A DNA stretch of 64,000 nucleotides from Malacoraja senta (Eukaryota), in assembly GCA_038087875.1 (NCBI GenBank), contig CM075988.1, positions 25,422,001 through 25,486,000 on the forward strand, read 5' to 3'. Shown one piece after another: positions 1 to 62,626 of the stretch. The first letter of the stretch is position 1, and every line of letters starts with the position of its first letter. The position numbers and the translations under genes were made by a program. The notes below the pieces were generated by a model. It searched no databases. It was not told the origin of the DNA and was given only the letters and a program-made list of their open reading frames with translations.

Positions 1-703
1 ACCGAGTCCACGCCGATCAGCGATCACCCGAGAGGACAATAAAGGGCTATCTATCTAATCTACACTAGAACTATCCTACACACACTCGGGACAATTTACA
101 ATTTTTCAGAAGCCAATTAACCTACAAACCCTGTATGTCTTTGAAATGTGGGAGGAAACCGGTGCACCTGGTGAAAACCCACGTGGTCATGGGGAGAATG
201 CACAAACTCTGTTCCGGATCGAACCCGGGGCACTTGCGCTGAAAGGCAGCAACTCTACCACTGTGCCACCCATTAAGATGGAGCAAAGAGCAATATTAGC
301 CGTGATGTGAGTGAGGGGGGTAAAATGGGATTGATGGGCCGAATGGCTTCCTCAGTTCCCATCAATACAAATCCTACAACTGAGCAGACACACTGCAGGC
401 AGCCAACCAGCCACTGTGGTGTCACCTGGCCCAACCAAGTGAGCATCTCTCTCTGCTGCTCCAACTATTGGCTTGCCACCACGAGAGGGGCCAGCTGATC
501 ATGTGGCCAGGACTATAACACACCACCATCTGTTGGAGACAGCACAGCAACTAAAACAGCTTTCATTTTCAAAAATCCCATGCTGTCAGCCAGCTGCCCA
601 TGCAGAACAAGATGCCCCATCTACACTAGTCCCACCTGCCCGTATTTGGCACAAATCTCTCTAAACCTTTCCTATCCAGGTACCTGTTTAATTGTTATAG
701 TAT

Positions 704-975
704 TTAAGAAGGAACTGCAGATGCTGGAAAATCGAAGGTAGACAAAAGTGCTGGAGAAACTCAGCGGGTGCAGCAGCATCTATGGAGCGAAGGAAATAGG
801 CAACGTTTCGGCCCGAAACCCTTCCGGGTTTCGGCCCGAAACGTTGCCTATTTCCTTCCGGGTTTCGGCCCGAAACGTTGCCTATTTCCTTCAGGGTTTC
901 GGCCCGAAACGTTGCCTGTTTCCTTCGCTCCATAGATGCTGCTCCACCCGCTGAGTTTCTCCAGCACTTTTGTCC
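704..975. mobile_element. PLE-derived fold-back element with internal ~34-bp tandem expansion
   Basis: Inverted arms; TSD AATTGTTATAGTAT (690-703 / 976-989); inserted in a minus-strand CR1. Confidence 0.85.
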
Positions 976-1974
976 AATTGTTATAGTATCTGCCTCACCT
1001 GCTCCTCTGGCAGTTTGTTCCATACACCCACCACCCTCTGTGTGAAACAAAAAGACCCTCATTTTTATATTAAATGTTTCCTATCTCACCTTAAACCGAT
1101 GCTCTCAGCTTCTCGATTCCCCTACTCTGAGTAAAAGACTGTCCCCTTCATCGAAAGCCCTAATTTTTTAATACACCTCTATACTCCTGTCTGCTCAGTG
1201 TGCGGCTCGTGTCATTGACGTACAAGACGAATCGGTTTCACCGAGAATGTCCATTGCATCAAAATAATCTCCACGCCACCACTACCTCATTGGAGACCTC
1301 TGGTCAAACTTTATGGGACTTTGATGTTATATCTTGCACTAAATGTGTGTCTTTACCTGTGCAATGTGGACGTCTGGATTGTATCCATGCAGTCTTTTTG
1401 ACTGGATAGCACGCAAGCAAAGGTTTTCACTGTTCCTCAATACTGGTGATGATAACAAACCCAACTAACAAAAACTTTTCCACAACAGGCAAACAATTTG
1501 TTCGGATGTTTTAAAATTACGTCACCAGGCATCCCAACCAACACTTTTTCATAGAAACATAGAAACATAGAAAATAGGTGCAGGAGGAGGCCATTCGGCC
1601 CTTCGAGCCAGCACCGCCATTCATTGTGATCATGGCTGATCGTCCCCAATCAATAACCCGTGCCTATAGAAGTTCACACAGAGTCTGTGGAATTCTCTTC
1701 CTCAGAGGACAGTGGAGGCCGGTTCTCTGGATACTTTCAAGAGAGAGTTAGATGGAGCTCTTACAGATTGCGGAGTCAGGGGATATGGGGAGAAGGCAGG
1801 AACGGGGTACTGATTATGGATGATCAGCCATGATCACATTGAATGGCGGCGCTGGCTCGAAGGGCCGAATGGCCTACTCCTGCACCTATTGTCTATTGTC
1901 TCCCGTCATTGCAAGAAGATAAAAGGTTTGGATAATGTTGGACAAAGCCAGATGAGGCCAGCTAGCAGAACTGC

Positions 1975-4965: not shown

Positions 4966-5452
4966 GAGAACGAGAAGCTGGTGAAACTTGGGTGGGGGAG
5001 GGATGGAGAGAGAGGGAATGCAGCGGTTACTTGAAGTACAGGAATAGCTACTTCCCCACAGCCATCAGGCTATTAAATTCAACATACAAAACTCTGAACA
5101 TTATTAGCCCATTATCTGTTTATTTGCACTTTATCTGTTTTATTTATTCATGTGTGTATATATATATAATGGTATATGGACACTGATCTGTTCTGTATTC
5201 ATGCCTACTATATTCTGTTGTGCTGAAGCAAAGCAAGAATTTCATTGTCCTATCTGGGACACATGGCAATAAACTCTCTTGAATCTTGAAGTTAGAGAAA
5301 TCAATAATCATACCGCTGGGTTGTAAGCTGGCCAAGCGAAGTATGAGATGATGTTTCTCCAATTGCGTTTGGCCTCACTCTGACATTGGAGGAGGCCCAG
5401 GACAGAAAGGTCAGTGTGGGAATGGGATGGGGAGTTAAAGTGTTTGGCAGCA
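4966..5452 (-). mobile_element. second PLE GIY-YIG 3' fragment, interrupted by a Rex1/Babar 3' end
   Basis: Minus frame EKHHLILRLASLQPSGMIIDFSNFK is homologous to the 60942-61181 peptide. Split at CTTGAAGT by the insert at about 5038-5285. Confidence 0.7.
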
Positions 5453-8906: not shown

Positions 8907-9274
8907 CTGGCTCCGACAGTGGCCGTGGGATGGTGTCTGCCACACACAGCCCCGGGGAAGCACAAGTCCTGTGCCCGAGTTCAAACACAATGGTAAACAC
9001 CGAGAATAAACTTTTAAATGGTGAAGTTCAAAGCCGTAGGAAGGTGGGGGGTTGGGGGTTGGGAGGGGGGGTTGGGGGGGTGGATAGTTTGAATTATTAA
9101 ATTCCATTTTCTTTTTCAAGAAATGAAAACTTTTTGCTGCACTCGAGTACTACAAATGCCTCTACACTGAGACAGGTCTGAATAAGTTCACCAGACAGGC
9201 CTTGGCCATGGTAGGAGGTGCTAGCATGCACTGCATCAGGCCAGTGGGCTCCACACAGCTCACTGTAAAGGTCA

Positions 9275-9551
9275 TTTAAGAAAGAACTGCAGATGCTGGA
9301 AAATCGAAGGTAGACAAAAGTGCTGGAGAAACTCAGCGGGTGCAGCAGCATCTATGGAGCGAAGGAAACAGGCAACGTTTCGGGCCGAAACCCTGAAGGA
9401 AACAGGCAACGTTTCGGGCCGAAACCCTGAAGGAAATAGGCAACGTTTCGGGCCGAAACCCGGAAGGGTTTCGGGCCGAAACGTTGCCTATTTCCTTCGC
9501 TCCATAGATGCTGCTGCACCCGCTGAGTTTCTCCAGCACTTTTGTCTACCT
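9275..9551. mobile_element. PLE-derived fold-back element with internal tandem expansion
   Basis: Inverted arms; TSD TCACTGTAA(A/C)GGTCA (9260-9274 / 9552-9566). Confidence 0.85.
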
Positions 9552-10676
9552 TCACTGTAACGGTCAAACAGGAAGTACAAACACATGCGGTTACTGACAG
9601 TCACAGCCTGGGTCGCCACCACCACCACACACACAGTCCCCACCGTTAATGATTAGCATGAAGACAGCACAGGGCACAGGAAACTAGACACAAAATGCTG
9701 GAGTAACTCAGCGGGGACAGGCAGGCAGCATCTCTGGAGAGAAGGAATGGGTGACGTTTCGTGTCGAGACCCTTCTTCAGACCGACAGTCAGTGGAGACA
9801 GAGGGAGACGAGAGATATGGCTGCAGGTACAGGGAAGAAGGAGAGAGAGAGAGAAAGAAAAAAAATAAGGCAGGGGGGGATTCATTATTTTCAAGGAAAA
9901 TTCCAGGAATGAAGTTTTTAAAACTTTAAAATTCAAACTGAGCCTTCGGTGTGTGCAAATCAAAAATACTCTTCCAGGCAAAAAATACTGTTGCAACCAT
10001 GGCTCTGTTTCTATGCTGTGTATCTAAAGTTGAAAAATGAAAAGTGTTTTATCATTGGGGGGGGGGGATTTAGAATTATGAATGCAAGGCGAGTAGGATT
10101 GAATTATGGTACTGGCTTAGGATAGGCTTAAGGGGCTGAATGGCCTGAAGCTGGATTTCTGGATAGAGAGGATGTGGAGAGGATGTTACCGCTAGTGGGA
10201 GCGTCCAGGGCCAGAGCGCACAGCTCAATAATATAAAAGGACATACCTTTAGAAAGGAAATCAGGAGGAATTTCTTTAGCTAGTGGGTGGTGAATCTGTG
10301 GAAGTTATTGCCCCAGATAGCTGTGGAGGCCAAGACAATGGATATTTTTAAGGTGGAATTTGATAGGCTCTTGAATAGCATGGGTGTCAGGGGTTATGTG
10401 GAGAAGGCAGAAGAATGGGGTTAGGAGGGAGAGATAGATCAGTCATGATTGAATGGCGAAGTAGACTTGATGGGCCGAATGGCCTAATTCTGCTCCTTTC
10501 ATACATAGATACATAGAAAATGGGTGCAGGAGTTGGCCATTTGTCCCTTCGAGCCAGCGCCGCCATTCAATGTGATCATGGCTGATCATCCCCAATCAGT
10601 ACCCCGTTCCTGCCTTCTCCCCATATCCCTTGATTTCGCTAGCCCCAAGAGCTCTATCTAACTCTCTCTTAAATAC

Positions 10677-11101: not shown

Positions 11102-11218
11102 TAAATGCATCCAGTGAATCGGCCTCCACTGCCTCCTGAGGCAGAGAATTCCACAAATTCACAACTCTCTGTGCGAAAAAGTTTTTCCTCATCTCAGTTC
11201 TAAACGGCCTACCCCTAA

Positions 11219-16365: not shown

Positions 16366-16406
16366 ATATATTTTTATTTGTTTTAAAAAATCATACATTT
16401 TGAATA

Positions 16407-16598
16407 TTTAAGAAAGATCTGCAGATGCTAGAAAAATCCAAGGTAGATAAAAAATGCTGGAGTAACTCAGCGGGTGATGCGCCATCTATGGAGCGAAGGA
16501 ATAGGTGACGTTTTGGGTCGAGACCCTGAAACGTCACCAATTCTTTCGCTCGATAGATGCTGCCTCACCCGCTGAGTTTCTCCAGCATTTTTATCTAC
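16407..16598. mobile_element. PLE-derived fold-back element
   Basis: Inverted arms; TSD CATACATTTT(G/T)AATA (16392-16406 / 16599-16613). Confidence 0.8.
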
Positions 16599-18210
16599 CA
16601 TACATTTTTAATAAATGTTTTAAGAGATGCCTAAATATTTGCACTTTTTTGGGGGGAAAAAGTGATAATATTCAGGCATTTCTTTAAACATATCTGGTCA
16701 GTATATCGCTGCTCTTTGTCCAGCAAGAGGCGGTGTGAAGTTGCCAACATCATGACAGTGACAAATGTCATTCAGTACGAGGCTGTAAAAGACCATCTGA
16801 CGATGGGAAAACTGCAGAGAGCACTTTACAGCAGATGTACTCTCAGCGGGAGATATTAGAACTGGTGAACTAATGTGCGGGCATTCGGGGAAGCTCTTCT
16901 GGAGCATCTCACAGGGGAACAGGGGCTCATTGTTACGAGCTATGCAGGTTCAGACCAAGTATCAAAAAGCTGCAAGATAGCACCAAATGTGCAGCAATCG
17001 GGCTGCGCACAGAACAGGAGAGATCATAGGTCCATAAGTTCTTGGAGCAGGATTAGGCCATTCGGCCCATCAAGTCTACTCCGCCATGCAATCGTGGCTG
17101 AGCTATCTTTCCCTCTCAACCCCATTCTCCTTCCTTCTCCCCGTAACCCCTGGCACCCGTTCCAATCAAGGTCTGTGGAGTGATGCACTCATCTGCAGGG
17201 CCATCGCTGGTCGGCACCAACTAGATGGGCCGAAGATGTTGTTTCCACACTGTATCTCTAAAGTCAGGCAGCATCTGTGGAAGGGGAATGAATCAGCATT
17301 TAACATTGCAGGATGAAGGTCCTTTGTCAGAGCAGAGGGTGGAAAATTAGCTTGGTTTCTCTTTCTGAATCTTGCTGCCTGGCCTGCTGAATGTCTCCAC
17401 CATTTTCCGATTTCATTTCAGAAAAGTGGGTCACATTTTCAGAGGAGGTGTTTGTGGGAGGTCGCGGTGCTGAATTTGGATGCCCCGTTTCCTGTAATAG
17501 AAATAACACTTCAAAAGCACATCACTGATGGCAAGAATCTACAGCGAATGTGTTTGTGTGTGTGGGGGGGGGGGTGACAATAACTGATACCATTGATGTT
17601 CCTGTCAGTTGCCATGTATTTGGCCATATAGGGCTCAATGAACCAGCAAACCCGTTTCCAAGCTGCCAGTTCCATGAGACACCACACTCCAGCATTTAGG
17701 CGAGCACCCTTCACTGTCCTCCTGCTGAGTTTCACTGTCTGTACATCCCGTTCTCACCTAGCTCACAGGCAACAATGGACCATTGTGGGCTCCACCTGTC
17801 TATGATCATCAGTTACTTTTTGCATAACTTTCATTCATTTGTTCTTTAACTCTTATAATCACTGCCCCCATCTCTTGTTTCCCTTTCCTCCCCCCCCCCA
17901 CACTCTGTGATAAGAAGGGTCTCAACCCGAAACATCACCCATTCCTTCTCACCAGATATGCTGCCTGTCCCGCTGAGGGAGTCCAGCACTTGGTGTATAT
18001 TTAGTGATGGTCACTGGTCACTATTGACACGGACCGCTCCCCAGATGCCTGTGGTCAAGAGACGTCAACTGGAATGATCTCTCATGATCACAGAAGACCA
18101 CGAGCCAAATGTGAGTGAAGGAACATCCCCCAGAGTAGGGAGATAAAGGGTGTCGACCAAAACATCACCCATTCCTTCGCTCCAGAGATGCTGCCCATCC
18201 CACTGAGTTA

Positions 18211-18525: not shown

Positions 18526-19917
18526 TAACTCCAGCATTTTGTGTCCGTCTCCAGGGAAATAAACCGCCTGGGTCCCATGTTTCCAATTACAGAATTTCAC
18601 ACAAATTTTAGAAGCTTTCAAATTTAATTGTTAAAGATCTAAAGTGCAAAAGCATTCTAAAGAAATGTTGCAAGTGTACAGACGGTGGTATTTATCCGTC
18701 AGACGTGCAGCGTTCCACCTGTAGTCTGGAGGTTAGCGTGACGTTCAAGTACAGCTGAGCTCGTTCAGACTCTGCGGCTCACTATTCACTTCCAGCAACC
18801 GCTATCTTGTGGTTAGAGAATGGAAAATGTCAATAATCAATGACAAAGCTCAACTCACTAGCTTATTATTTACAGCCAAAGAAACGGATTCACTCGAGCA
18901 TGTCCTTGAACCAAGGCTATGTTTCTTGGCCACGGACACCACACCGAGGCCAGCCTTGTCCCCAGAGCCTGCATACCATGGAGAGGCCGGTGCAAGGAGG
19001 CAGTCTATGGGCGGGTGTGGAGGGGGGCGGGGGGCCCCAAAGACTTGCTTCACTGCAGGTTCTTTGCAAGGTGGGTACCTGGGACGAGTCTGGTGGTCTG
19101 GTGCCAGGGTGGAGAACATGGACAGTGTAGTCCTGCGGAGGCAAGGCCGGAGGGGGGGGGGGGGGGAGAGGTGGCAGAAGCTGGGGGTCCCACAGCTTCA
19201 AGCTTGGAGATTGGCCAGGCAGAGGATGAGAAACGAAGGCGTCTAACACAGGGCTACCAACAGCCCACTTAGACCATTGAATCTGCAGGAAGGAACCACA
19301 GATGCTGGTTCATATCAGAGGTAGACACAAAATGCTGGAAAAACTCAGCGGGACAGGCAGCATCTCTGGGGTAAAGGACCAATCCATGTTCTCAAATTTT
19401 CAATTGTCCAGAGTCTCAGCTTTCTGGGAGTGTGTTCAAGAACTCCCATTTTGTTTTAATAACACTGCTTGCCATTAGTCCTGGACCTCCTGTCCACCCA
19501 CCTTCTCAAATCTTTTAATCATAGTCATAGTGCTGAAACAGGCCCTTCAGCCCAACTTGCCCACACTAATCAACATGTCCCATCTACACTAGTCTACCTG
19601 CTTGCGTTTGACCCATATCCCTCTAAACCCGTCTTATCCATGTACCTGTCTAAATGTTTCTTAATAATTGTGATAGTCCCAGCCTCAACTACCTCCTCCA
19701 GCAGCTCATTCCATACACCCACCACCCTTTGTGTGAAAAAAGTTACCCCTCAGGTTCCCATTAAATCTTTCTCCCTTCACCTTAAACCTTTGTCCTCTGG
19801 TTCTCGATTCCCCAACTTTGGGCATTAGAGACTGATCATCTACCCGATCTATTCCTCTCATGATTTTGTACACCTCTGTAAAATCACTCATCATCCTCCT
19901 GTGCTCCAAGGAATAGT

Positions 19918-20222
19918 TCAAGAAGGAACTGCAGATGCTGGAAAATCAAAGGTAGACAAAATTGCTGGAGAAACTCAGCGGGTGCGGCAGCATCTATGGA
20001 GCGAAGGAAATAGGCAACGTTTCGGGCTGAAACCCTTCTTCCAGCGAAGGAAATAGGCAACGTTTTGGGCTGAAACTCTTCTTCCTGCGAAGGAAATAGG
20101 CAACGTTTCGAGCCGAAACCCTTCTTCCAGGCGAAGAAGGGTTCCGGCCCAAAACGTTGCCTATTTCCTTCGCTCCATAGATGCTGCCGCACCCGCTGAG
20201 TTTCTCCAGCAATTTTGCCTAC
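19918..20222. mobile_element. PLE-derived fold-back element with three internal ~42-bp repeats
   Basis: TSD CTCCAAGGAATAGT (19904-19917 / 20223-20236); inserted in a minus-strand CR1. Confidence 0.85.
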
Positions 20223-20808
20223 CTCCAAGGAATAGTGTCCCAGCTTGCGCAACCTCATCTTTTAGATGAATTAGATTGCTGGTAATCTTCTGAACTCAAG
20301 GGAACAAAAGTCTTCGAAGTGCAAACATGTTCTTGCAATGTCGGGGTTCAGCCCCAGCGTGACTCAGGAGTTGGACAGCGTGAGACATGGGCGGTCCAGT
20401 CACATTACCCCAACTGGATGATGCCAGTCAGATGGAACAGAAACGATGAGAACAGGCCATCCTTCATCAGCAGAAAATATCAATAAGAAAACAGGAAGAA
20501 GAAATAAGAATGAGAACCAGCATGAGAACCAGAATGAGAATATCACTGTGACTTGTCACTAGAGACAATAAACTACCATTCATTCAGCAAGATGCAGCTA
20601 AACACACGGAGAAATAAGGCCGGCCGCCGGTGGGTTAGATTGCTTCCCAACCCCGCACCACCACTTCAAAACATCCCATATTATCAAATATTTGCCCTCA
20701 ACTCTACTTGTCTGCCCTGATCTTAATAAACTTTCACTTCCCCCTCTCTCTCACCCCACTTGAATATATAACGAGTAAGCGTTCGCAGACCCAGATATAG
20801 GATCATAA

Positions 20809-29903: not shown

Positions 29904-31802
29904 TCTCCTTTAAATGTTGCTCCCCTCATCTTAAAGTTATGCTCTAATTTCTGATTTGCAGTGTCACAATATTTTTCCTTTTGATCTTTCCCCTCCCCCC
30001 ACCCCAAGATATTCAGTGATAAATATTCACCAGGATACCAAACAAATCTCTTGCTTAATGAAATAGTGCCCTAGGATATCTTGCATCTACATAATTCATA
30101 AAATAGCATGACTTTTTAGTGACTTATCCAAAAGACAGTACTAATGACAATGCACAGAATGGCAGCCTGACTTTGTGCTTGACATATTGGAGCAAAGCCT
30201 GAAGCAATAACTTTCCTACATGGTTGAGGCTGATGGCCAAGACATACGACATTCAGGAAAGCACAAGGAAGTGCAGAGCTGGCTTACAAAAAAGCAACAC
30301 AAGATGCTGGAGTAACTCAGCAGGTCAGGCAGCATCTCTGGAGAAAAAGGAATAGGTGGCATTTCGGGTCGAGACCCTTCTTCTTCAGACCCAACCCGGG
30401 TCTCGACCCAAAACGTCATCCATCCATGTTCTCCGAAGTAGCTGCCTGACCTGCTGAGTTACTCAGCATCGTGTGTCCGTTTCGGTATAAACCAGCATCT
30501 GCAGTTCCTGGTTTCTCTCCGTTTCTCTCAGAGTGCTCTCTGTTCCAGGAATTAATTTTAGATTTCCACTATAAACCACTCAGAGACATATTTGCAGCAC
30601 CGAAGGAGGATAATCTGCTTGATGAGTCCAGGTTTATCTTAGACAATAGACAATAGACAATAGGTGCAGGAGTAGGCCATTCGGCCCTTCGAGCCAGCAC
30701 CGCCATTCAATGTGATCATGGCTGATCATCCCCAATCAGTACCCCGTACCTGCCTTCTCCCCCTATCCCCCGACTCCGCTATCTTTAAGAGCCCTATCTA
30801 GCTCTCCCTTGAAAGTATCCAGAGAATCGGCCTGAGGCAGAGAATTCCACAGACTCACAACTGTGTGAAAAGGTGTTTCCTCATCTCCGTTCTAAATGGC
30901 TTACCCTTATCTTCACAGTTTCCTCCACCTTTACAACCATGCCCCTCCCTTGCAAATCCAGCCCCCCCCCCCCCCCCCCCCCCCCACTGTGGTGAGAGCA
31001 ACATTGCCATTAGCATTCTGCACAAAGATGTCTGGCACAATTTCCTGTTCGATTCACTAGCTAATCATTTATTTATGGCCACTAGTCTTGGAATTTCCCT
31101 CGTTAAATGTTGACACACTCTCGCTGAGTGCCCATTGCTGGCCTAGAAGCAGAATTAAAAATGTCACAGCAAACTGGCTCGTGCACAGAGGACTTTAAAT
31201 GATGCAGGGGTGAAAGCAAAGGCAACAGGTGAAGCAAGGTCAAAGGGCAAGCGATACTGGGCACGGGGGTGAAGGCGGGTAAATTGCAGCATTACTGAGA
31301 AAGAAGAGGAATAACAAGAAACAATGAACTGCACCAACGTTTGTAAGTTCTAGGAGAAGAATTAGACCATTCGGCCCATCAAGTCTCCTCCGCCATTCAA
31401 TCATGGCCAATTTATCTTTCCCTCTCAACCCCATTCTCCAGCCTTCTCCCCGTAACCCCTGACACCCGTACTAATCAAAATTCTATCAACCTCTGCCTTC
31501 AAAATATCCATTGACTTGGCCTCCACAGCCGTCTGTGGCATTGAATTCCACAGATTCACCACCCTCTGACTAAAGAAATTCCTCCTCATCTTCCTATAGG
31601 AAAGTCCTTTTATTCTGAGGCTAAGGCATCTAATTCTTGACTCTCCCACACTTGTGGAAACATCCTCTCCACATCCACTCTATGCAGGCCTTTCACTATT
31701 CGGTAAGTTTCAATGAGGTGCCCCTTCATCCTCCTAAAATGCTAGTTTCCAAAGGCAATACACAAAATGCTGTTGCAACTCAGCGGGTCAAGCAGCATCA
31801 GA

Positions 31803-32340
31803 CTGAAGAAGGGTTCCGACCTGAAACGTCACCTATCCACGTTCTCCACAGATGCTGCCTGACCCGCTGAGTTACTTCAGCACTCTGTGAAACGTCACCT
31901 ATCCATGTTCTCCACAGATGCTGCCTGACCCGCTGAGTTACTCCAGCACTCTGTGAAACGTCACCTATCCATGTTCTCCACAGATGCTGCCTGACCCGCT
32001 GAGTTACTCCAGCACTCTGTGAAGCGTCACCTATCCATGTTCTCCAGTGATGCTGCCTGACCCGCTGAGTTACTCCAGCACTCTGTGAAACGTCACCTAT
32101 CCATGTTCTCCACAGATGCTGCCTGACCCGCTGAGTTACTCCAGCACTCTGTGAAATGTCACCTATCCATGTTCCGGCAGCATCTATGGAGCGAAGGAAA
32201 TAGGCAACGTTTCGGCCCGAAACCCTTCCGGGTTTCGGCCCGAAACGTTGCCTATTTCCTTCAGGGTTTCGGCCCGAAAGGTTGCCCATTTCCTTCGCTC
32301 CACAGATGCTGCCTGACCCGCTGAGTTACTCCAGCACTTC
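31803..32340 (+). repeat. head-to-tail array of a 66-bp PLE terminal unit (about 5.3 copies), followed by a fold-back centre
   Basis: Unit GAAACGTCACCTATCCATGTTCTCCACAGATGCTGCCTGACCCGCTGAGTTACTCCAGCACTCTGT starts at 31823, 31889, 31955, 32021, 32087 and 32153. Confidence 0.9.
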
Positions 32341-33273
32341 ATGTCTTTCAATGGGAGTGACGAGATTGCCTTCAAGATCCAGCATTGATTCAAGGGGCCA
32401 AAAGGCCTCCTGGTGCAGCGTCATAAATATAAATTAGTGCCCTTTTATTGTTAATTTGGAATTATCCCGAAGGAGCAAGTGGAATTAATTGCAGTCTCTG
32501 AAACAAGCGAAGTGGGCAGTGGAAGGAATAAAGATGAGATGCCACATTGCTGATCGATGGGGCAACTACAGTGCAATATATCTAATAAATCATCTGGATA
32601 CTCGCGATTTATTCTGAAGAACATGGAAATGCAAGACATATTATTGCATTCCAGGCAGCATGGTGTCTGGAGCTGTAAGGCAGCAGCTTTACCGCTGGTA
32701 AAGGCAGGTAGAGACAGTGGCAGAGACAGCACATGAGGTCCTTGCCTTGATTAGAGTCAGAGTCATGGAGCTTAGCTTAGATGGGGCATGGATGACTGGG
32801 CCTTGCTGTAGGACTTGGCGATACATGTTGGTCAGAATGCAAGAGACAATGGCTGTCTTTGAAATAATGCTAGGGTTGTTTGGTAAATCCATGGGAGAGG
32901 ACAGACAGGGCATTGATTCAACATGTCAAGTAGAAGTCAGAACCGCCTGCAGGATGGAAGCGTCCCAGTGTTGTTGGCCTAGATTCCTGTGCTCTGGTTT
33001 CTGGAGTGGGAATTTAACCCTTCATCTTCTCTGCCAGAATGGTAGGAATAATAGGGCCAGGAGGTGGCCATTTGTTCTATCATTTCTTCACAGGTCAAAG
33101 CAGCCTTTTCATGCAAGCCCCATGTTTAACCTCTTGCCCAAAGGCCTGTGGCTGACAGTCCTTCAGGTTCCCTTATAAATGTAAGAGTGTTTCTGCCTCG
33201 CTATCCCAGCAAGCAGTGATTTAACCAGTGGCCATTCTTGTCAACCTCACTGCGAACGAAAATGGGCCTTTCC

Positions 33274-34205: not shown

Positions 34206-34500
34206 ACTAAAAAAACTTTTAAAAAACTGTACACTGCACTCGAGAGCTGACTGATAATGTCGCATCAACCCAGCTCTTGTAACCTCCCTGCTCTTGTGCC
34301 CCAATTGTGGACAATAAAGGATATTATTGTCTAAAGTAGTTCGGAAGTTATGTTGCAGTTATACAAGATGTTAGCGAGACCACACTTTGAATCTTGTGTT
34401 CACTTTGATCACCTGCTGTAAAAGATGCCATTGTGATGGAAATAGTGCAGTGATGATTTATGATTTTGTCAGGATTGAGCAGACAGTGTTATATGGAGAG

Positions 34501-34737
34501 TTGTTTCAGAAAGAACTGCAGGTGCTGGAAAAATCAAAGGTAGACAAAAACGTTGGAGAAACTCAGCGGGTGAGCAGCATCTATGGAGCGAAGGAATAGG
34601 TGATGTTTCGGGTTGAGACCCTTCTTCACACTGGTAATTCAGTCTGAAGATGGGTCTCGACCCGAAATGTCACCTATTCCTTTGCTCCATAGATGCTGCT
34701 CACCCGCTGAGTTTCTCCAGCGTTTTTGTCCACCTTA
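34501..34737. mobile_element. PLE-derived fold-back element with hammerhead-like motifs on both strands
   Basis: TSD TGTTATATGGAGAG (34487-34500 / 34738-34751); CTGAAGATGGGTCTCGACCCGAAATGTC at about 34644-34671. Confidence 0.85.
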
Positions 34738-37700
34738 TGTTATATGGAGAGGTTGGGCAAACTGATTTTACTCCTTGCAGCGTTAGAAAGTGAGGGGTGT
34801 TCTTAGATATACATGAAATCATGAAAGGGGTAGGAGTATTGCAGTCTTTTTAACATTGTAGATGAAATCTCAAATTGGAGGACAGACGTTTAAGGTGGTG
34901 GGGTGGGGGAAGATTTAATAGTACCTGTGGGGCAACTTTGTATGTGGAGCAAGCTGGCAGAGGAGGCAAACATAATAACATTTACAAGAAGTACATGGAC
35001 AAGAAGGTTTTAGAGGGATATGGACCAAACTACAGCAGCTTATTGTTGCCGTAAGATAACCTCAGACTCCGGTGATTTTTGTGTGTTCACCACAGTTCTC
35101 CTCAAGGCTGAACTAAAAGAACAATTGTTCCTTTATGCCACTTCCTCAGGGTGATGGGGTTTGACATTTGATCTGCTAGTTGATTTTCCCCATTAACTCA
35201 GCGGTGAATCAGAGAGGGAGTTGTTGTGCTCACTGGCCATGTGTTGTCAGCAACTGTCAAGCCACAGAGACTGCTCTATGTGTGGCAGCTTGCCGAGTTG
35301 GGCACAGCTAACCCAGAGTGGCTCCAAACTCTCAATCACCAAAGCCTGGACAAGGCAGAAGCTAAGGGCACGCACTCGCGACAGAGCAGGGAAATTGAGA
35401 ACCAGAGGGCTTAGGTTTAAGTTGAGGTGGGAAAGATTTTCTAGGAACCAGAGGGGTAACTTTTTATTTTTTATTTAATTTTTTAACATAAGTATGGAAC
35501 GAGCTTCCGGAAGAGGTAGGTACTATCGTAACATTTAAGAAACATTTGGATAGGTACATGGATAGGATAGGCTTCGAGGGGTATGGGCCAAACTCAGGCA
35601 GGTGGGACATGTTGGTCGGTGTGGGCAAGTGTGATGAAGGGCCTGTTTCCACGCTGTATGACTCCATAACTGGATATAAGGCATTGTGTTCATGCAACTG
35701 ACTCTTTTCTGGCAATCTCTGCGTCTGGGGATATGATTCATTCATACCAGTCAGTTGGAACAAGCAAGGTCTTTGATTGTAAGGGGAGATCAAGGTGAGT
35801 GGGGGAGGCGCATACATTGCCATTGTCATTCCCCAATGGTGAACCTTACATGGTGGTTACATTGGAAATATTTTTTGAACTTGGCCACACAGGGTTTCTG
35901 AGCACAGATTTTCTTTTACTCCAACCATTAGTTTCCACCTCAACTCAAATGTTTGAGGGGGAAAACAGAGGCAGTTTTCCAACTGGTGACATTGGATGGT
36001 GACATTGGGTAAAATACATCCAATCTGCAATGGTCACAAAGTGGACGCTGACAGGTAACGTTCCACAATACAAGGGTCTGGAACTTTGGGATTGTGGTGA
36101 CATGAAGGTTTCATCATCTTGTCTAAGGTTCATGAATCCTCAGTCTTCTCCACCCTGAATGGGTCTTCATTGGCAATATCTCAGATGGAGATGTAGATGT
36201 AGACGAGATCAGAAAGGAAGGCAAACTTGGAATAGAATGGCAGTGGTGATCTCATTTCAATAGCAGAGCAAATTCCAATGGTAACAATCCCAACTCCAGC
36301 TTCTTAGGTTCTTAACTCTATTTTCTTTTTATAAACAGACACATAAGAACTGTTTTTCTGTGTGCGCATTGCAAGCAAATGATTTTTTAAAAAAGGCTAT
36401 ATATGATGCTGGACCTAGTCACAAGGGAGTGAATGGTGAAAACAGCGCAGCAATAATTATGTTACGGTTTGAGGCAGCCCTGGGCAGTTCCTGACCTAAT
36501 TACAAACACTTTCATCCCCGCAGCCCAAGTGTGGATCAGTTTGCATGTCATTCGGAGCAGTTTAATAGATTATATATTTTTAGCAAGTCATTAATTCGTG
36601 CTGGGCCTATGAAAGGTAGTTAGACTCTCTGCAGGGGCCAGAGCCACCAAGTCCCAATGGGTTCATAAAACAAAGCACCAGTTGTATTTTTGGGAAGAAA
36701 CACATTGGACAAATCTTGCATCCAAGTTTCTCACTAAAGTCCATAGCACGCACTGATACCATCTCCCCGCTCCGCAACGTGCCTAATCCGTCTGAAGAAG
36801 GGTCTCCACCTGAAATGTCCACCAGTCTGAAGGGTCTCCACCCGAAACGTCACCCATTCCTTCTCTCCAGAGATGCTGCCTGTCCCGCTGAGTTACTCCA
36901 GCATTTTGTGTCCATCTTCGATTTAAACCAGCATCTGCAGTTCTTTCCTGCATCTAATCTAGAGTTGTTTCAGCAATAATGGAGAGGCCATTCAGATGAT
37001 GTGGGGAAGGACAGACTAATAATGCTGCAGGTGACTCACCCCGTGGTCTGACACAAACAAAGTATATATAATTGGATAGCACAATGTTTCAACTCAAAGA
37101 CGACTCTGCACCCACTTTGGTCTCACTTTCCCCAGAAACTTGTAGTTTTATTCTTGTTTATTCTCTTGTTATTCTTTTCACAGTTGTTTCAAATGTGTCC
37201 TCTCCGACACTCTGGCCAGCGAAATGGTTTCTCCTGTTTGTCTGCAAACATCGGTTGGGGTTTGGAGAACTTCTCTCAAATCCCTTCTCAACCTTCTCCA
37301 GCATAAATAGGGTTTGACGAGGAAACACTTTTTCTCACAGAGAGTGGTGAGTCTAGTGGAATTCCCTGCCTCAGAGGGCGGTGGAGGCAGGTTCATAGAT
37401 ACATAGAAAATAGGTGCAGGAGTAGGCCATTCGGCCCTTCGAGCCTGCACCGCCATTCAATATGATCATGGCTGATCATCCAACTCAGTATCCCGTACCT
37501 GCCTTCTCTCCATACCCCCTGGATGCTTTCAAGAGAGAGCTAGATAGGGCTCTTAAAGATAGCGGAGTCAGGGGATATGGGGAGAAGGCAAGAACAGGGT
37601 ACTGATTGTGGATGATCAGCCATGATCACATTGAATGGGGGTGCTGGCTCGAAGGGCCGAATGGCCTACTCCTGCACCTATTGTCTATTGACATGTACTG

Positions 37701-52772: not shown

Positions 52773-55431
52773 ACTACCACACAGACTTTTCCATTTTACA
52801 ACCTGATCCTTGTTTGAGGGAGAACGGGTATTAGCAACAGAATAAGGTAGCAGACATTCGCACAGTTGGAGGGATACAAGGAATTACAAGAACGTTCAGA
52901 AAATGCATCCGTCTTACCAAGAGGGTAAAGAAGGCTGCCAATTATGTGGCAATTCTAATGGGAAGCCATTTTGGGTTTGACTTTGTGTAACATTCACCTG
53001 CCCACTAATCCATGGGTCTCGGCAGGTGAAGGCATAATTTTCAGCGATGGAGGGAAACGGAATGCACGAAGACCAGAACCTGCCAATAGACAATAGGTGA
53101 AGGAGTCGGCCCTTCGGCCCTTCGAGCCAGCACCGCCATTCAATGTGATCATGGCTGATCATCCCCAATCAGTACCCCGTTCCTGCCTTCTCCCCATATC
53201 CCCTGACTCCGCTATTTTTAAGAGCCCTATCTAGCTCTCTCTTGAAAGTATCCAGAGAACCTGCCTCCACTGCCCACTGAGGCAGAGGAGGAGGAGCAAA
53301 GAGATCCAGGATGTAGGACTGGTGAGGGTTACCAAAATACAGAGCCGCAGGCTTAGCTGTTTCAGGCTTTTAAATATCTTTTATATTTTAAATATAAAAC
53401 TACTTCCTTTCATGCAGCTGTGAACTATCACTGACCCTTAAATCCAAGATACATTACCAATACTTCCAAATATTATTTACTTGGGGGCCTTTTAGTTGCA
53501 GAAGCTAAGATACCATGGTCACCATTTGACTCCAGGACAGATGGTATAAAAGCACAGTAGATAATTTAGTCAATGGGTATTAAATGGCAGCCTACCTAGT
53601 TTAATTCCTACCTAGATCATTGTCATATATTTTCCTTATTCTACTAATGCCAATCATATCATGATTATGTCAATAGCAATTCAATTTGAAAACAAATTCT
53701 AACAATCAATTATTTTTGTTTCCTTTATTGTCACCAACAATGCATTATTCCATAGGGTATTTAATAAAGATTGCCACCCGCTGCCTTTACAAGCCAGAGA
53801 GGCACATAGTACGGAATTAACCCCCTTCAGCCCAACTCATCCTGCTGTTAAAGGTTTCAACGGTCTTGTATTGTCACGTGTACCAATTAAGGAACAGTGA
53901 TAACCGTATTACTGTTCGGGTTATAGGGGAGAACAGGAGAATGGGATTGAGAGGGAAAGATAGATCAGCCACAATTGAATGGACTTGATGGGCCGAATGG
54001 CCTAATTCAACTCCTAGAACGTACAAACTTAACCTACAACCAATTAGGTCATCCAGCACAGCGTTTATGGGTGGATCGGAGGGCAACAGGATTTTGGGTG
54101 GAGAAACTCAGCGGGTGAGGCGGCATCTATGGAGAGAAGGAATTGGAGCCCGCCCCCTCCCCTGACATCAGTCTGAAGGAGGGTCTCGACCCGAAACGTC
54201 GACAATTCCTTCTCTCCATAGATGCTGCCGCACCCGTTGAATTTCCACAGCATTTTTAGTCTACCTTCGATTTTTCCAGCATCTGCAGTTCTTTCTCAAG
54301 TATTTTGGATGGCCAAGTTTTGGAGAAAGACCTAGAATCAATGGGCAGTACTAGTTGGGGTGGGAGATAGGGAAGTCATGGATGGGAGTTTCAGAGCTGA
54401 CTGAGATGGGTGTTGGGCAGTCAGTTTCAAAGAGCTTTTTTGGTTAAAATAATATTTTCAACACTGTTGTTTTGAAACTAGGAAGTACAGAAAGTGCCTG
54501 GCGTCAGAAGCTTGGAAACAGGATTTCCCCATTCAGGGGCCGCCCCGGCCTCGTGTCCACTGCAGACTCGCTCTTCCCACAGAAAACCACAACTCTGTAA
54601 AAGTTAGCAAACAGATATCTAGCCCTCGCTACAAATGTACAATATATCCGCTGCTCCTCAGAATAGTCGACACTGGATACAAACCTACTGCAACTGAAGG
54701 TTAGCTCTCTGTGTAACAATGAGTTTTGGGGAACAGAGTTGGGGTTTTTTAAACAGATGTTTAGACTGGATAAAAAGATGAGATGATATCGAGAGGTTTC
54801 AATAATATCAAGACTGGATTTTAACAGCTTGTAGACAGAGAGGAATGTACAAGCTGCCAAGAACGAAGAGCTCAACAATTGGAACACATTTTGATCGCAA
54901 AATGTTGTAGATAAAATGGGTAACCTTCACAGCAAAGCATGGTCAAGAACTTAAAGATAGACACAAAATGCTGGAGTAACTCAGCGGGACAGACAGCAAT
55001 GGGTGGAATGGGTGATGTTTCGGATTGAGACCCGAAATGTTACCCATTCCTTCTCCAGAGATGCTGCCTGTCCCACTGAGTTACTCCAGCATTTTGTGTC
55101 TATCTTCGATTTAAACCAGCATCTGCACTTCTTTCCTACACACATGGTCAAGAACTCATTAAGGTCAGTGATAATCGCAAGAATGGTTGACTGGATGGAA
55201 CTGTGGAATAAAGATGTCTGTGAAAGGAGAAGTTGGGAGGAAGCCCTGTCTGATATTAACCTTTGCTGGAACCGTGCCAAAGGTCAAGAGTCCATTGTTT
55301 CATTGTCATCCGTCCCAATGAGAACAATTACATTCTTACTTGCAACAGCACAACACGATATGTAAACATAGCACACTGTAAACATTATAATGAGAAAAAA
55401 GTTCAGTATACATACACACATATATATATAT

Positions 55432-56560: not shown

Positions 56561-57804
56561 GCCAACATTTGATTATTTTGTGCCAAGAGTTGTTGGGATT
56601 ATCACTAAGTTCTTCGATTGACCAAGGGATCAGAAATCTCAAAGCAAAACAATAATATGTCGATTGTGTTCCTCTCTCATTCCTAGCTCAAAACTCCACC
56701 TCCACACACACACACACACACACACAGAAACCCAGCACGAGCACTAAACCTTGTCTGCTGGTCACCTGGCCCAGCCAGCATCCTCATCACCCAACACTTT
56801 TATTTCTGTTTGATCCCAACACCGGTCTATCTACATCACCATCTATATCTCTCATTTCCCTCTCCCCGACTCTGTCTGAAGAAGGGTCTCGACCCGAAAT
56901 GTCACCTATTCCTTTTCTCCAGAGATGTTGTCTCACCCACTGAGTTATTCCAGCTTTTTGTGTCTATCTTTGGTTTAAACCAGCATCTCCAGTTCCTTCC
57001 TATACGAGCAAACACCTTCAATTGAGTTTAGTGGTACAGAACGGAAACAGGCCCTTCGGCCCACTGAGTCGATGCCGGCCAGTGATCCCCGCACATTAAC
57101 ACTATCCCACACACACACACACACTGGGGACAATTTACAATCTTTACCGAACAAACCCGTAGTACGTCTTTGGAGTGCGGGAGGAAACTGGAGCACCTGG
57201 AGAAAACCCACGTGGTCACAGGGAGAACATACAAACTCTGTACAGACAGCACCTGTAATCAGGATGGAACTCGGGTATCTGGCACTGTAAAGCAGCAACT
57301 CTACTGCTGCACCACCGTGCCGCCCCTAGCTTCTAAAATTAGGCATTTTAATTTTATCGAGTCATCCAGGTTTGGTTTTGGACTTGCAGATGCTGGACAG
57401 GGCACTAAGAGCGAGATATCATTCACACTGCAAGATTAAACAGAGCTGAGGTACATCTGTTGCAATTAATCTGCAACCGACTAGCAGATATGACCAGAAC
57501 ATGTATAGAGAATATTAATGTGGTCTCAGAGAAACAACAGCAATGCCACTGATATCTCAGGCCCCACCATTTTAAAGTCTCCATCACATGTCAGTCACTC
57601 CATTGCAAAAAGCACCCAGCAGTCAGAGCACAATTATAGATTTTACCTTGAGCTGTTTACACGGGCAGAGAATACCGAGCTGTCCAATGCTGGGGTGAAG
57701 TAGTGCAGGACACAGGGAGCTCTGGGAGCGGTTTAAAGAGACGCATTAACTCCACTGTAGGTAAAACCCTGACTTTAAGTGCAATGTGTTCAACAGAGCC
57801 ATTG

Positions 57805-58121: not shown

Positions 58122-58693
58122 AGTGAGACCACATCTGGAGTATTGTGTACAGTTTTGGTCTCCTAATTTGAGGAAGGACATCCTTGTGATTGAGGCAGTG
58201 CAGCGTAGGTTCACGAGATTGATTCCTGGGATGGCGGGACTGTCATATGAGGAAAGATTGAAAAGACTAGGCTTGTATTCACTGGAGTTTAGAAGGATGA
58301 GGGGGTATCTTATAGAAATATATAAAATTATAAAGGACTGGACAAGCTAGATGCGGGAAAAATGTTCCCAATGTTGGGCGAGTCCAGAACCAGGGGCCAC
58401 AGTCTTAGAATAAAGGGGAGGTCATTTAAGACTGAGGTGAGAAAAAACTTTTTCACCCAGAGAGTTGTGAATTTGTGGAATTCCCTGCCACAGAGGGCAG
58501 TGGAGGCCAAGTCACTGGATGGATTTAAGAGAGAGTTAGATAGAGCTCTAGGGGCTTGTGGAGTCAAGGGATATGGGGAGAAGGCAGGCACGGGTTATTG
58601 ATAGGGGACGATCAGCCATGATCACAATGAATGGCGGTGCTGGCTCGAAGGACCGAATGGCCTCCTCCTGCACCTATTTTCTATGTTTCTATG
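58122..58693 (+). mobile_element. CR1 3' fragment, frameshifted
   Basis: [13 protein letters not shown]...VVNLWNSLP split across two frames. Confidence 0.93.
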
Positions 58694-60740: not shown

Positions 60741-60754
60741 GATAAAAGATCAAA

Positions 60755-61183
60755 GGAAGACAAAAATGCTGGAGAAACTCAGCGGGTGAGGCAGCATCGA
60801 TGGAGCAAAGGAATAGGCGACGTTTCGGGTTGAGACCCTTCTTCAGACTGATGTGGGGGGGGGGGAGAAGAAAGGAAGAGGCGGAGACAGTGGGCTGTGG
60901 GAGAGCTAGGAAGGGGAGGGGAAAGAGGGAGAAGGCAAGGACTACCTGAAATTGGAGGAGACAATGTTCATACCGCTGGGGTATAAACTACCCAAGCGAA
61001 ATATGAGGTGCTGTTCCTCCAATTTACGGTGGGCCTCAATCTGGCTATGGAGGAGGCCCAGGACAGGAAGGTCGGATTCGGAATGGGAGGGGGAGTTGAA
61101 GTGCTGAGTCACCGGGAGATCAGGTTGGTTATTGCGAACCGAGCGGAGGTGTTGGGCGAAGTGATCGCCGAGCCTGCGCTTGG
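60755..61183 (-). mobile_element. 3' fragment of a Penelope-like (Neptune-type) retroelement: GIY-YIG endonuclease C-terminus, 3' UTR and terminal repeat with hammerhead motif
   Basis: Open minus frame 61181-60942: KRRLGDHFAQHLRSVRNNQPDLPVTQHFNSPSHSESDLPVLGLLHSQIEAHRKLEEQHLIFRLGSLYPSGMNIVSSNFR*, with motifs typical of PLE GIY-YIG domains (R..EH, HF, LE...I..L....P.G.N). Followed by a pyrimidine-rich UTR and the terminal sequence seen in the fold-back elements. Confidence 0.85.
60816..60850 (-). ncRNA. minimal type I hammerhead ribozyme motif
   Basis: Minus strand reads cagt-CTGAAGA-A-GGGT(ctca)ACCC-GAAA-CG-TC-gcc: conserved core, stem II, palindromic ACGT in place of stem III, GUC cleavage triplet. 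Stem I is very short. Activity untested. Confidence 0.65.
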
Positions 61184-62626
61184 AGATCAGCTGTGATCCC
61201 AGTATGTGGCAGGTCAGGCCTCAGAGGACAACCGTTCCACTGTTGCCTCTGCCGCTCATGTTCCAATATGTCCAACTCACCTTTGAAAGATTCAACCGAA
61301 TCTGCCACCACCGCCAGCTCACACATAAAGTGTCCGCACATTTCACATGGCCATTTGTGGAAATTCACTCCGCAAATACTGCCCATTGCCTTTGTTACGT
61401 TAGGGCATGGATAATACTTAAAACAGAACCTCACTGGCTATACTGCTGTGAAGGGCACAATAAATATGTAGGGGGGGGGGGGGTCTGTTTTTTAATTTGT
61501 GTATTTGTGATGTCTTTATAACTTGTTTTACTCTGATTATATGTTTATATGTTTCTTAAATTGTAAGGTGTCCTAGAGACCTCGGTATTAGGCGCCCTTA
61601 TAATAAAATCTATTATTATTATTATCACCATCCTCCCTTCCATGTGAAAAACCTCTCTCATCTTCCACTGTTTCTTTTTGCCTTTTACCCCAAATCTGCC
61701 CCCTTCTCAATTCTGTTCTCCCCAGAAGACACAGATTAGTAACCACATCAAACCTTGACTCTGGTACAATCACAACCCACCAAAAACAATTCTTCTTTCT
61801 GAGAAGTTAAGTACTTTGAGAACTAATGGACGTTTTTTTTTTTAATGGGGGAGGGGAGGGGTAATGCAACGATAAAAAGGATCCTTCAAAACTTAAATAA
61901 ATGACATTATAATGACATTTGCATCGGCAACTTTGGGGAGTGACACATTGCTGCACACAGACTGTGCTCTTACATGGGGAAATAACTGCTCAGCTGGCAA
62001 TGGGGATAAGCTGCCTTCACATTCATTAAAGCCGTACTGTGGTGGAAAGAAGAGGTTTCTGTGGATGATTTTGGGACTCGTGTTGTGGCCAAGGCATTCT
62101 CGTTCATTTCGAGGGGTAATTCTTTCCCCTCAGAGGGTGGTGGGTGTATGGAACGAGCTGCCGGAGGAGGTAGTTGAGGCAGGGACTATCACAACGTTCA
62201 AGAGACATTTGGACTGGGCAGGTTTGGAGGGATATGGGCCAAGCGCAGGCAGGTGGGACTAGTGTAGCTGGGACATGTTGGCCGGTGTGGGCAAGTTGGG
62301 CCGAAGGGCCTGTTTCCACACTGTGTCACTCTAAGACCAATTGCGGATACAGCTCGCTATATTGCGAATAAAACTCACGTGTCGGTTCGGGGGGGATGGG
62401 GGAGAGAGAGAAGGTAGGTCATATATAATGAACAGACTGGGTCTCAACAGCTGATGGGATTAATACAGCGCCCCCATAACACAAGCCTCCCTCCAACGTT
62501 AGACATCCACTCTCAGAGAGGCGACGTTTAAATTGCAACGTAGCCGCTCCCACCGGCTCTGAAACTACCCGGGACTAACTCCCATCTCCCTGCGTGCAGG
62601 CCAGAGTTCTGCTGTGGTTTTAATAT

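What the first reader, a model, noticed from the sequence alone, without database searches (positions are those of the whole stretch)
60755..61183. The most abundant short repeat is the hammerhead-bearing end of a Neptune-type Penelope element
Seen: a GIY-YIG-like frame ends at 60942. About 95 nt downstream lies CTGAAGA-A-GGGT(ctca)ACCC-GAAA-CG-TC, then the arm sequence found in roughly 30 short repeats across the window. Similar cores, some with substitutions, occur near 6280(-), 9753(-), 14465(+), 31803(+), 34644(+), 48783(-), 54174(+) and 56876(+). Established: Penelope-like elements carry minimal type I hammerheads whose stem III is reduced to a palindrome and which are proposed to cleave as dimers. 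Inference: this repeat, easily mislabelled as a MITE or SINE, is a large ribozyme-linked non-autonomous PLE derivative (retrozyme-like) in an elasmobranch.
Basis: partly seen in the sequence, partly recalled or inferred. Interest (0 to 1): 0.75.

Follow-up and report, generated by a model that had tools for sequence, protein, structure and literature searches.

The report
Skate Penelope retroelement fold-back stubs
The commonest short repeat in this stretch of likely skate DNA is the tail end of a Penelope-type jumping gene, mostly left as head-to-head hairpin stubs; it carries a hammerhead-ribozyme motif that is likely crippled, so it is a new example of a known kind of element rather than a ribozyme-driven retrozyme.

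Summary
Observation confirmed. On the minus strand a GIY-YIG C-terminal frame stops at 60942, a minimal hammerhead core starts 95 nt later, and the arm follows. The arm family is the window's most repeated sequence (73 hits, 41 loci, 9.8% of bases). Homologs are elasmobranch RT+GIY-YIG proteins with a Cys linker, so Neptune is likely, by exclusion. The 'retrozyme-like' reading fails. The short copies are mostly head-to-head fold-backs: 14 of 18 have a 30-35 nt tail on one arm only, and 8 of 18 have 11-15 bp target duplications. That is the published Penelope insertion signature. No tandem unit holds a complete hammerhead. Helix I is 2 bp or less in 11 of 12 window cores, against 3 bp or more in 95 of 120 related cores elsewhere, and 47 of 57 arms read through the cleavage site. 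One composite fold-back lacking the catalytic box occurs twice, each with its own target duplication and with the tail on opposite arms, so some stubs were likely re-copied as units. The scan noted similar stubs in three other genomes. Cleavage is untested.

The parts
60945..61184 (-). 5'-truncated C-terminal part of a Penelope-like GIY-YIG endonuclease ORF (after YIGET; holds the HF..H and EE..LIF.L.SL.P.G.N blocks)
   Evidence: a loose end at 61183 in run X18 continues into RCQLLYIGE on the minus strand
60942..60944 (-). TAG stop of the ORF
60847..60941 (-). 95-nt pyrimidine-rich 3' UTR ending in CATCAGT; its last 2 nt are the 5' strand of helix I
60819..60846 (-). Minimal type I hammerhead core: CUGAAGA, extra A, stem II GGGU/ACCC (60838-60835 with 60830-60827), GAAA, palindromic ACGU in place of helix III, GUC; the predicted cut would fall between 60819 and 60818
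   Evidence: architecture as in PMC4209133
60750..60818 (-). About 70-nt arm downstream of the core; this copy ends at the tail boundary (no tail, no inverted partner, only a 6-nt AGATCA match at 60747-60752 and 61184-61189)
5287..5451 (-). Second, frameshifted fragment of the same endonuclease C-terminus, 80% identical, cut off before the 3' UTR
690..989 (.). Composite fold-back A: 14-bp target duplication (690-703, 976-989), tail on the left arm, three 34-nt core repeats in the centre, no CUGANGA box
9260..9566 (.). Composite fold-back B: 98.8% identical to A over 241 bp in the opposite orientation, own 15-bp target duplication (1 mismatch), tail on the arm that lacks it in A
32174..32349 (.). 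Partial third copy C of the same composite centre (two core repeats), with a chimeric right arm
16392..16613 (.). Fold-back whose two arms overlap inside stem II; 15-bp target duplication (1 mismatch); tail on the left arm only
34487..34751 (.). Fold-back with a 14-bp target duplication, tail on the left arm only; both arms share a private 1-nt deletion
54938..55156 (.). Fold-back joined in stem II; 14-bp target duplication; tail on the right arm only
19904..20236 (.). Fold-back with three 44-nt partial core repeats; 14-bp target duplication; tail on the left arm only
56852..57006 (+). Solo copy with part of the 3' UTR, core, arm and full tail (tail about 56975-57006); AGATGCTG-like arm bases can pair with CAGCATCT in the tail
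31794..32153 (+). One core-bearing arm followed by four head-to-tail 66-bp units that start at GAAAC and lack the CUGANGA box (not a retrozyme array)

Best explanation
The repeat is the 3' end of a Penelope-like retrotransposon, likely of the Neptune clade, and the short copies are mostly head-to-head fold-back stubs, likely made when reverse transcription stopped at the hammerhead motif about 100 nt from the element's end. The likely sequence of steps is: (1) the element's protein would cut the two target strands about 14 bp apart (inferred from the duplications seen); (2) copying would start at two sites about 33 nt apart (inferred from the two clusters of 3' ends, and matching the in vitro result for the Anolis element); (3) the template was likely uncleaved RNA, since most arms read through the cut site; (4) the inverted arm was likely copied from the same template and joined at or near the self-complementary stem II, by snap-back or by annealing. 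The hammerhead is ancestral but likely inactive or protein-dependent in this family, and is likely not needed for the stubs to spread. A minority of stubs were likely re-copied as whole units in trans.
For: Shown: ORF end, 95-nt UTR, core and arm are contiguous in one copy. Other copies link core to UTR or stop: X15 contigs 1-3, with 13-16 differing letters, and continuous RNA depth across the UTR. Homologs have RT before a CxxxxCxxC linker and GIY-YIG. In metagenome DNA the same core lies 67-165 nt downstream of such an endonuclease end, same strand, in 29 of 104 cores with enough flank; in none of 127 cores does the endonuclease end lie within 250 nt downstream. 18 of 41 loci are fold-backs; 14 of 18 have a full tail on one arm only. 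Arm 3' ends: 29 of 57 at +85 to +104, 24 at +120 to +132, 3 in between. Duplication score 11 or more in 8 of 18 fold-backs against 7 of 300 random pairs. 5' ends: 35 of 57 fall within -10 to +20 of the core start, and 47 of 57 include the cut site. RNA depth falls about tenfold or more just upstream of the core. Arms of one insertion agree at 80% of diagnostic sites against 51.5% when re-paired, 0 of 10000 permutations. Third helix I pair forms in 2 of 13 window cores against 42 of 51 metagenome cores. Literature: inverted truncated copy plus one-sided 30-40 bp tail (PMC8557442, PMC3846280); two RT start sites bounding the tail, and cleavage not required in vitro (PMC11167929).
Against: No whole genome was held and no full-length autonomous element was seen in this organism. 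Only 1 of 57 arms reaches the ORF in the window. Neptune is assigned by linker motif, domain order and exclusion, without an RT tree. 10 of 18 fold-backs and all 23 other loci lack a high-scoring duplication (age, or boundaries outside the model). Arm concordance could come from gene conversion after insertion. Clustered 5' ends could partly reflect a few re-copied masters or later loss of palindrome centres. A 2-bp helix I is also reported for the active D. virilis Penelope, and the Anolis hammerhead cleaves once protein is added, so inactivity is not proven.
Confidence: 0.82

Rival explanations
1. Most fold-backs are a self-propagating non-autonomous family: a hairpin RNA of about 200 nt is transcribed and re-inserted whole by the Neptune protein in trans, MITE-like in shape but retrotransposed.
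For: A (690-989) and B (9260-9566) share a complex centre at 98.8% identity over 241 bp, with unrelated flanks and separate 14-15 bp duplications; C shares the same junction. Arm-bearing RNA is abundant in both orientations in a polyA run of a related or the same organism. pLTR sequences suffice for mobilisation in trans (PMC3846280, passage).
Against: Apart from A, B and C, the fold-backs in the window each have a different centre. The tail sits on opposite arms in A and B, which a simple one-tailed master cannot give without a centre inversion, a two-tailed master or a template switch. Arm RNA could be read-through of host transcripts.
Confidence: 0.3
2. One reading: a retrozyme-like element whose hammerheads cleave as dimers, release unit RNAs (possibly circular) and drive amplification.
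For: The catalytic boxes, extra A, G10.1-C11.1 pair and ACGU palindrome are all present in the focal copy and in 4 of 22 core-spanning copies. Short tandem arrays exist. Retrozymes were reported in the one chondrichthyan sampled (bioRxiv 10.64898/2026.07.22.740005).
Against: The arrangement is head-to-head, so the core would be buried in a long hairpin in read-through RNA. No tandem array has two complete cores. Helix I is 2 bp or less in 11 of 12 cores and shows no covariation above shuffles. 47 of 57 arms include the uncleaved site. The re-copied A/B unit has no CUGANGA.
Confidence: 0.07
3. A MITE of a DNA transposon, or a tRNA-derived SINE, that happens to resemble a hammerhead.
For: The copies are short, abundant and hairpin-shaped.
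Against: Ends are asymmetric, duplications are 11-15 bp, the arm is contiguous with a GIY-YIG ORF end, ARAGORN finds no tRNA in the window, and the same core marks Neptune-type ORF ends in unrelated DNA.
Confidence: 0.02

Closest known systems
Canonical EN+ Penelope-like element insertion with inverted pLTR and one-sided tail (Craig et al. 2021, PMC8557442; Arkhipova et al. 2013, PMC3846280)
   Same: 5' truncation, head-to-head inverted copy, 30-40 bp tail at one end only, long target duplication (8-10 bp in the Adineta vaga examples), palindromic junctions.
   Different: Here both halves are usually cut back to about 100 nt, so the whole insertion is a 200-bp hairpin; duplications are mostly 14-15 bp; density reaches 9.8% of the window; at least one composite hairpin was re-copied.
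Minimal type I hammerheads of metazoan PLEs (Cervera and De la Pena 2014, PMC4209133)
   Same: Intact boxes, one extra base between positions 9 and 10.1, G10.1-C11.1, palindromic 15.2-16.2, mostly dispersed single motifs, some close pairs on opposite strands.
   Different: Helix I is 2 bp (as in D. virilis) rather than 4-5 bp, and helix II is 4 bp. The text read names bony fish, coelacanth, Xenopus and reptiles, not elasmobranchs.
Poseidon element of Anolis (PAc; Frangieh et al. 2024, PMC11167929)
   Same: Copying starts internally, downstream of the hammerhead, at two sites bounding the tail; uncleaved RNA is the main template.
   Different: PAc is of the Poseidon clade and its ORF starts inside the hammerhead; no conserved frame across arm and tail was seen here.
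Metazoan non-LTR retrozymes (Cervera and De la Pena 2020, PMC7229834; Li et al. 2026, bioRxiv 10.64898/2026.07.22.740005)
   Same: Non-coding, related to PLE pLTRs, type I hammerhead, target duplications longer than 4 bp.
   Different: Retrozymes are head-to-tail 150-450 bp repeats with complete hammerheads; these are head-to-head stubs with broken or partial cores.

Membership tests
EN+ Penelope-like element | RT followed by a C-terminal GIY-YIG endonuclease in one ORF | tested here: met
   Met through homologs: P0010, P0013, P0016 and P0022 match both RVT_1 and GIY-YIG at E 0.008 or better, mostly below the curated cut-offs; the window holds only the endonuclease C-terminus (59% identical to P0010).
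EN+ Penelope-like element | CCHH motif with two cysteines between GIY and YIG | tested here: met
   YCIRC..C..LYIGET and HF...H in homologs; the HF...H part is in the window fragment.
EN+ Penelope-like element | Inverted 5'-truncated partner and 30-40 bp tail at one end | tested here: met
   14 of 18 fold-backs have a one-sided tail; the tail is a loose end in 773 RNA reads.
EN+ Penelope-like element | Full-length ORF with direct pLTRs | not tested
   No whole genome was held; the longest homologs begin inside the RT; no search for longer proteins was run.
Neptune clade | CX2-5CxxC Zn-finger linker between RT and EN (absent in Penelope/Poseidon) | tested here: met
   FPCNRRVCNTC in P0002, 76% identical to the fragment; same motif in shark and ray homologs. 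The linker lies outside the window fragment.
Neptune clade | RT phylogeny separating Neptune from Nematis | not tested
   No named reference set at hand; Li et al. 2026 report only Neptune and Poseidon in the vertebrates they sampled.
Minimal type I hammerhead | CUGANGA, GAAA and UH boxes, helix II, palindromic helix III | tested here: met
   Met in the focal copy; boxes intact in 10 of 22 core-spanning copies, with ACGT in 4 of 22; helix II cells 96% paired.
Minimal type I hammerhead | Helix I of about 4-5 bp | tested here: not met
   2 bp or less in 11 of 12 window cores; 8x8 nt duplex +0.7 kcal/mol in the focal copy against a median of -3.3 in 126 metagenome cores. A 2-bp helix I is also reported for D. 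virilis.
Minimal type I hammerhead | Self-cleavage after UH, as a dimer | not testable with these tools
   No read-end pile-up in a fragmented polyA library, which is an insensitive test.
Non-LTR retrozyme | Head-to-tail tandem units, each with a complete hammerhead | tested here: not met
   Arrays at 826-978, 9303-9461, 20043-20130 and 31889-32153 lack CUGANGA in their units; at 36785-36922 the second core has a 3-nt deletion.
Non-LTR retrozyme | Abundant circular RNAs of unit length | not testable with these tools
   Only a polyA run and contigs were available.
MITE | Symmetric terminal inverted repeats with a short fixed target duplication | tested here: not met
   One-sided tail and 11-15 bp duplications. 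The short fixed duplication of DNA transposons is recalled, not from a call.

The most novel reading that the evidence does not exclude
Skates carry a very large family of hairpin-shaped, non-autonomous Penelope derivatives that are retrotransposed as whole fold-back units after losing ribozyme function, with the tail assigned afresh to either arm at each insertion. The family would be a natural genome-wide test of how Penelope proteins prime both target strands, and evidence that the hammerhead acts as a stop and joining point for reverse transcription rather than as a catalyst.
Probability: 0.3. Interest if true: 0.55.

Novelty: new member of a known kind. Interest (0 to 1): 0.3.

Why it matters
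It gives the right label to what is likely one of the commonest short repeats of skate genomes (9.8% of this window), which would otherwise be filed as a MITE, an unknown repeat or a spurious miRNA hairpin. Thousands of such stubs would allow a statistical test of the Penelope insertion mechanism: stagger length, two start sites, same-template copying and tail flipping. The shortened helix I, next to relatives that keep a covarying helix I, bears on the open question of whether Penelope hammerheads need to cleave at all.

Tried and rejected
Rfam found no hammerhead family in the window or in 60780-60900, but it also missed six control loci carrying the same core, most with 4-6 bp helix I, so the blank is uninformative; its miRNA hits come from the fold-backs. 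Pfam found nothing for the 79-aa fragment. No whole genome was held. The viral scan gave 3 loci with no endonuclease match. The metagenome scan covered 9 of 64 parts and gave no copy of the arm itself; the arm profile hit only the core region there. No RNA holder was listed on record among indexed runs; X15 and X18 are only guessed to be RNA. Idea of an intron ending at the CAG just before the core, as in D. virilis: no such joint appears among the listed joints, none of which had RNA reads, and loose ends at 60849 are heterogeneous (agreement 0.35); 148 joints were not shown, so it is unsupported rather than excluded. A distal extension of helix I with arm bases was considered and not pursued, because those bases pair preferentially with the tail. 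The arm-tail fold has z-scores of only -0.4 to -1.6, so it is not claimed as significant. The 6-nt match flanking the focal copy is not accepted as a target duplication. Searches for a printed description in skates or sharks (listings only) and of one supplement file of PMC4209133 found none; subscription papers, Repbase, Dfam and the bioRxiv supplements were not seen.

Full report
Observation. On the minus strand an open frame of 79 codons ends in TAG at 60944-60942. A 95-nt pyrimidine-rich stretch follows, then the core CTGAAGA-A-GGGT(CTCA)ACCC-GAAA-CG-TC at 60846-60819, then an arm of about 70 nt to 60750. A loose core pattern matches 10 times in the window against 2.47 +/- 1.86 expected; 0 of 100 shuffles reach 10. 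A profile of core, arm and tail gives 73 hits covering 6299 bases (9.8%), and 0 in the reversed window. The hits cluster into 41 loci. By self-BLAST this is the most repeated sequence, with up to 55 hits per position against at most 25 for other families.

The coding part. The fragment has no Pfam match. Its best homologs are Leucoraja erinacea proteins at 76-77% identity, so the window is likely from a skate. A search with one of the homologs (P0007) returns shark and ray proteins of 379-522 aa among 13 hits. Four of the 8 proteins scanned (P0010, P0013, P0016, P0022) match both RVT_1 and GIY-YIG, mostly below the curated cut-offs. The alignment shows RT, then a CxxxxCxxC linker, then YCIRC..C..LYIGET, then the block present in the window. 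A loose end at 61183 in run X18 continues into RCQLLYIGE. Craig et al. 2021 (PMC8557442, passages) state that this linker marks Neptune and Nematis and is absent from Penelope/Poseidon. Li et al. 2026 (bioRxiv 10.64898/2026.07.22.740005, parts 1-3 of 5 read; supplements closed) report only Neptune and Poseidon in the vertebrates sampled. Neptune is therefore likely, by exclusion; no RT tree was built.

Link between arm and coding region. In the window only 1 of 57 arms reaches the ORF. Laid reads show the link is not unique to this copy. PolyA run X21 (11535 reads laid, from about 6% of the run) has depth of about 3000 per mate class on the arm, 82-253 across the UTR and up to 665 on the ORF. 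X15 contigs 1-3, with 13-16 differing letters, span core to UTR or stop. Divergent UTRs fall below the 84% cut-off, so the drop is overstated to an unknown degree. Independently, a metagenome scan (9 of 64 parts scanned) gave 127 cores in 123 loci from unnamed hosts. Of the 104 with 250 nt of upstream flank, 29 have the end of a homologous endonuclease within 250 nt upstream on the same strand (67-165 nt over all 30 such rows). None of the 127 has it within 250 nt downstream, and 2 have it nearby on the opposite strand.

What the short copies are. 18 of 41 loci are head-to-head pairs. By inspection, 14 of the 18 carry a 30-35 nt extension on one arm only, one has partial extensions on both arms, one has a partial extension on one arm, and two have none. 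Among 57 arms reaching +80 from the core start (three near-identical tandem units dropped), 29 end at +85 to +104, 24 at +120 to +132, 3 in between and 1 earlier. Two of these ends, including the focal copy's, are alignment overruns. Target duplications of 11-15 bp score 11 or more in 8 of 18 fold-backs, 0 of 23 other loci and 7 of 300 random position pairs; two more fold-backs have 14-bp matches with 2 mismatches. An inverted truncated partner with a one-sided 30-40 bp tail is the published Penelope signature (PMC8557442; PMC3846280, passages; PMC8969392, passages). Frangieh et al. 2024 (PMC11167929, parts 1-2 of 4 read) showed in vitro that the Anolis protein cuts and extends both strands, starts at two internal sites bounding the tail, and does not need hammerhead cleavage.

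Where copying stops. 35 of 57 arms have their 5' end between -10 and +20 of the core start, 9 extend further, 3 end at +21 to +27 and 10 at +28 or later. The cut site lies at +27/+28, so 47 of 57 include it. Several junctions lie inside the self-complementary stem II (16515-16527, 55025-55033, about 24590-24600). The two arms of one insertion agree at 80.2% of 14 diagnostic sites, against 51.5 +/- 5.2% after random re-pairing, 0 of 10000 permutations; 17 pairs were used, one duplicate composite and one short pair having been dropped. This fits copying from one template by snap-back or by two primers, but gene conversion is not excluded. Four metagenome loci, two of them apparently the same insertion, show the same head-to-head pivot just upstream of the core, so the shape is not skate-specific.

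State of the ribozyme. The core matches the minimal hammerhead of Cervera and De la Pena 2014 (PMC4209133, parts 1-2 of 4 read; one supplement file searched): extra base after A9, G10.1-C11.1, palindromic ACGU. Of 22 copies spanning the core, 10 keep both boxes and 4 also keep ACGT. Helix I is the weak point. It is 2 bp or less in 11 of 12 window cores, but 3 bp or more in 95 of 120 metagenome cores (six with G at the cut site and one short-flank row dropped; shuffled partners mean 29.5, maximum 44 in 500). In 51 distinct metagenome cores all five helix I pairs show changes on both sides (97 such cells over the whole structure against 40 shuffled, 0 of 500). In 13 window cores the third pair forms in 2, and nothing exceeds the shuffles. 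Against my reading: that paper reports a 2-bp helix I in D. virilis Penelope, and the Anolis ribozyme cleaves when protein is present, so activity in full-length elements is not excluded. No read-end pile-up was seen, but that library is an insensitive test. Dimer cleavage of minimal hammerheads in Lunse et al. 2017 is recalled, not read.

Not a retrozyme. Non-LTR retrozymes are head-to-tail 150-450 bp repeats with type I hammerheads (PMC7229834, passages), and Li et al. require two consecutive complete motifs. The five small arrays here never hold two complete cores.

The one unusual point. Insertions A (690-989) and B (9260-9566) share an asymmetric centre of three 34-nt core repeats and are 98.8% identical over 241 bp in opposite orientation. 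They have unrelated flanks and their own 14- and 15-bp duplications, and the tail is on opposite arms. A partial third copy lies at 32174-32349. So at least one hairpin was likely copied as a unit, although it has no CUGANGA box. The tail switch needs a centre inversion, a two-tailed master or a template switch. The other centres in the window differ from one another, so I rank wholesale self-propagation second.

Prior notes and print. Three earlier scan notes on other genomes reached the same fold-back reading; I consulted them after forming mine, and they are not independent support. A look-up by sequence found nothing. Paper searches for Penelope with skate, shark, chondrichthyan or elasmobranch (listings only) showed no description of this family.

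Verdict. A real, very abundant Penelope-like 3' end, likely Neptune, with a likely crippled minimal hammerhead. New member of a known kind; interest 0.3.

Noticed in passing
window 10248-11204, 15057-15436, 26187-26775, 40247-40632, 58262-58693: A second abundant family (about 24 self-hits) is the 3' end of a CR1-type LINE with an RT fragment at 25359-26519; several ends sit tail-to-tail or nested at short tandem tails such as 10497-10503. The label HER1 for it is recalled, not from a call.
   Followed up: no
window 61-270, 4416-4716, 20816-21100, 33907-34204, 42773-43054, 57022-57317: A SINE-like family of about 300 bp with about 14 copies and a GGTTCGATCC-type B box; likely the elasmobranch HE1 SINE (name recalled). 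ARAGORN calls no tRNA.
   Followed up: no
window 41514-41839 and 50502-50840: Two apparent fold-backs interrupted by later insertion of LINE 3' fragments, so the stubs predate some LINE activity.
   Followed up: partly
window 60847-60870 (-), 48812-48840 (-), 54144-54172 (+), 56852-56875 (+): A pyrimidine tract ending in CAG (or CTG) one base before the hammerhead core resembles a splice acceptor, as described for D. virilis Penelope; no splice joint was listed in the RNA run.
   Followed up: partly
window 699-978, 9273-9554, 19915-20228, 24515-24709: The most homogeneous subfamily has an extra A downstream of the core (851 of 6256 reads in X21) and a stem II loop that allows an alternative hairpin with the GAAAC box; none of these copies keeps CUGANGA.
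   Followed up: partly
protein P0011 C-terminus: The read-through tail of this zebra shark gene model ends in LMKGLRPKRQ, which is how a hammerhead core of this type would translate, suggesting the same motif downstream of the endonuclease in sharks; its DNA was not seen.
   Followed up: no
L042, L049, L110, L121: Metagenome loci from unnamed hosts with two inverted hammerhead cores joined 19-31 nt apart, the same fold-back pivot in unrelated Neptune-type families.
   Followed up: partly
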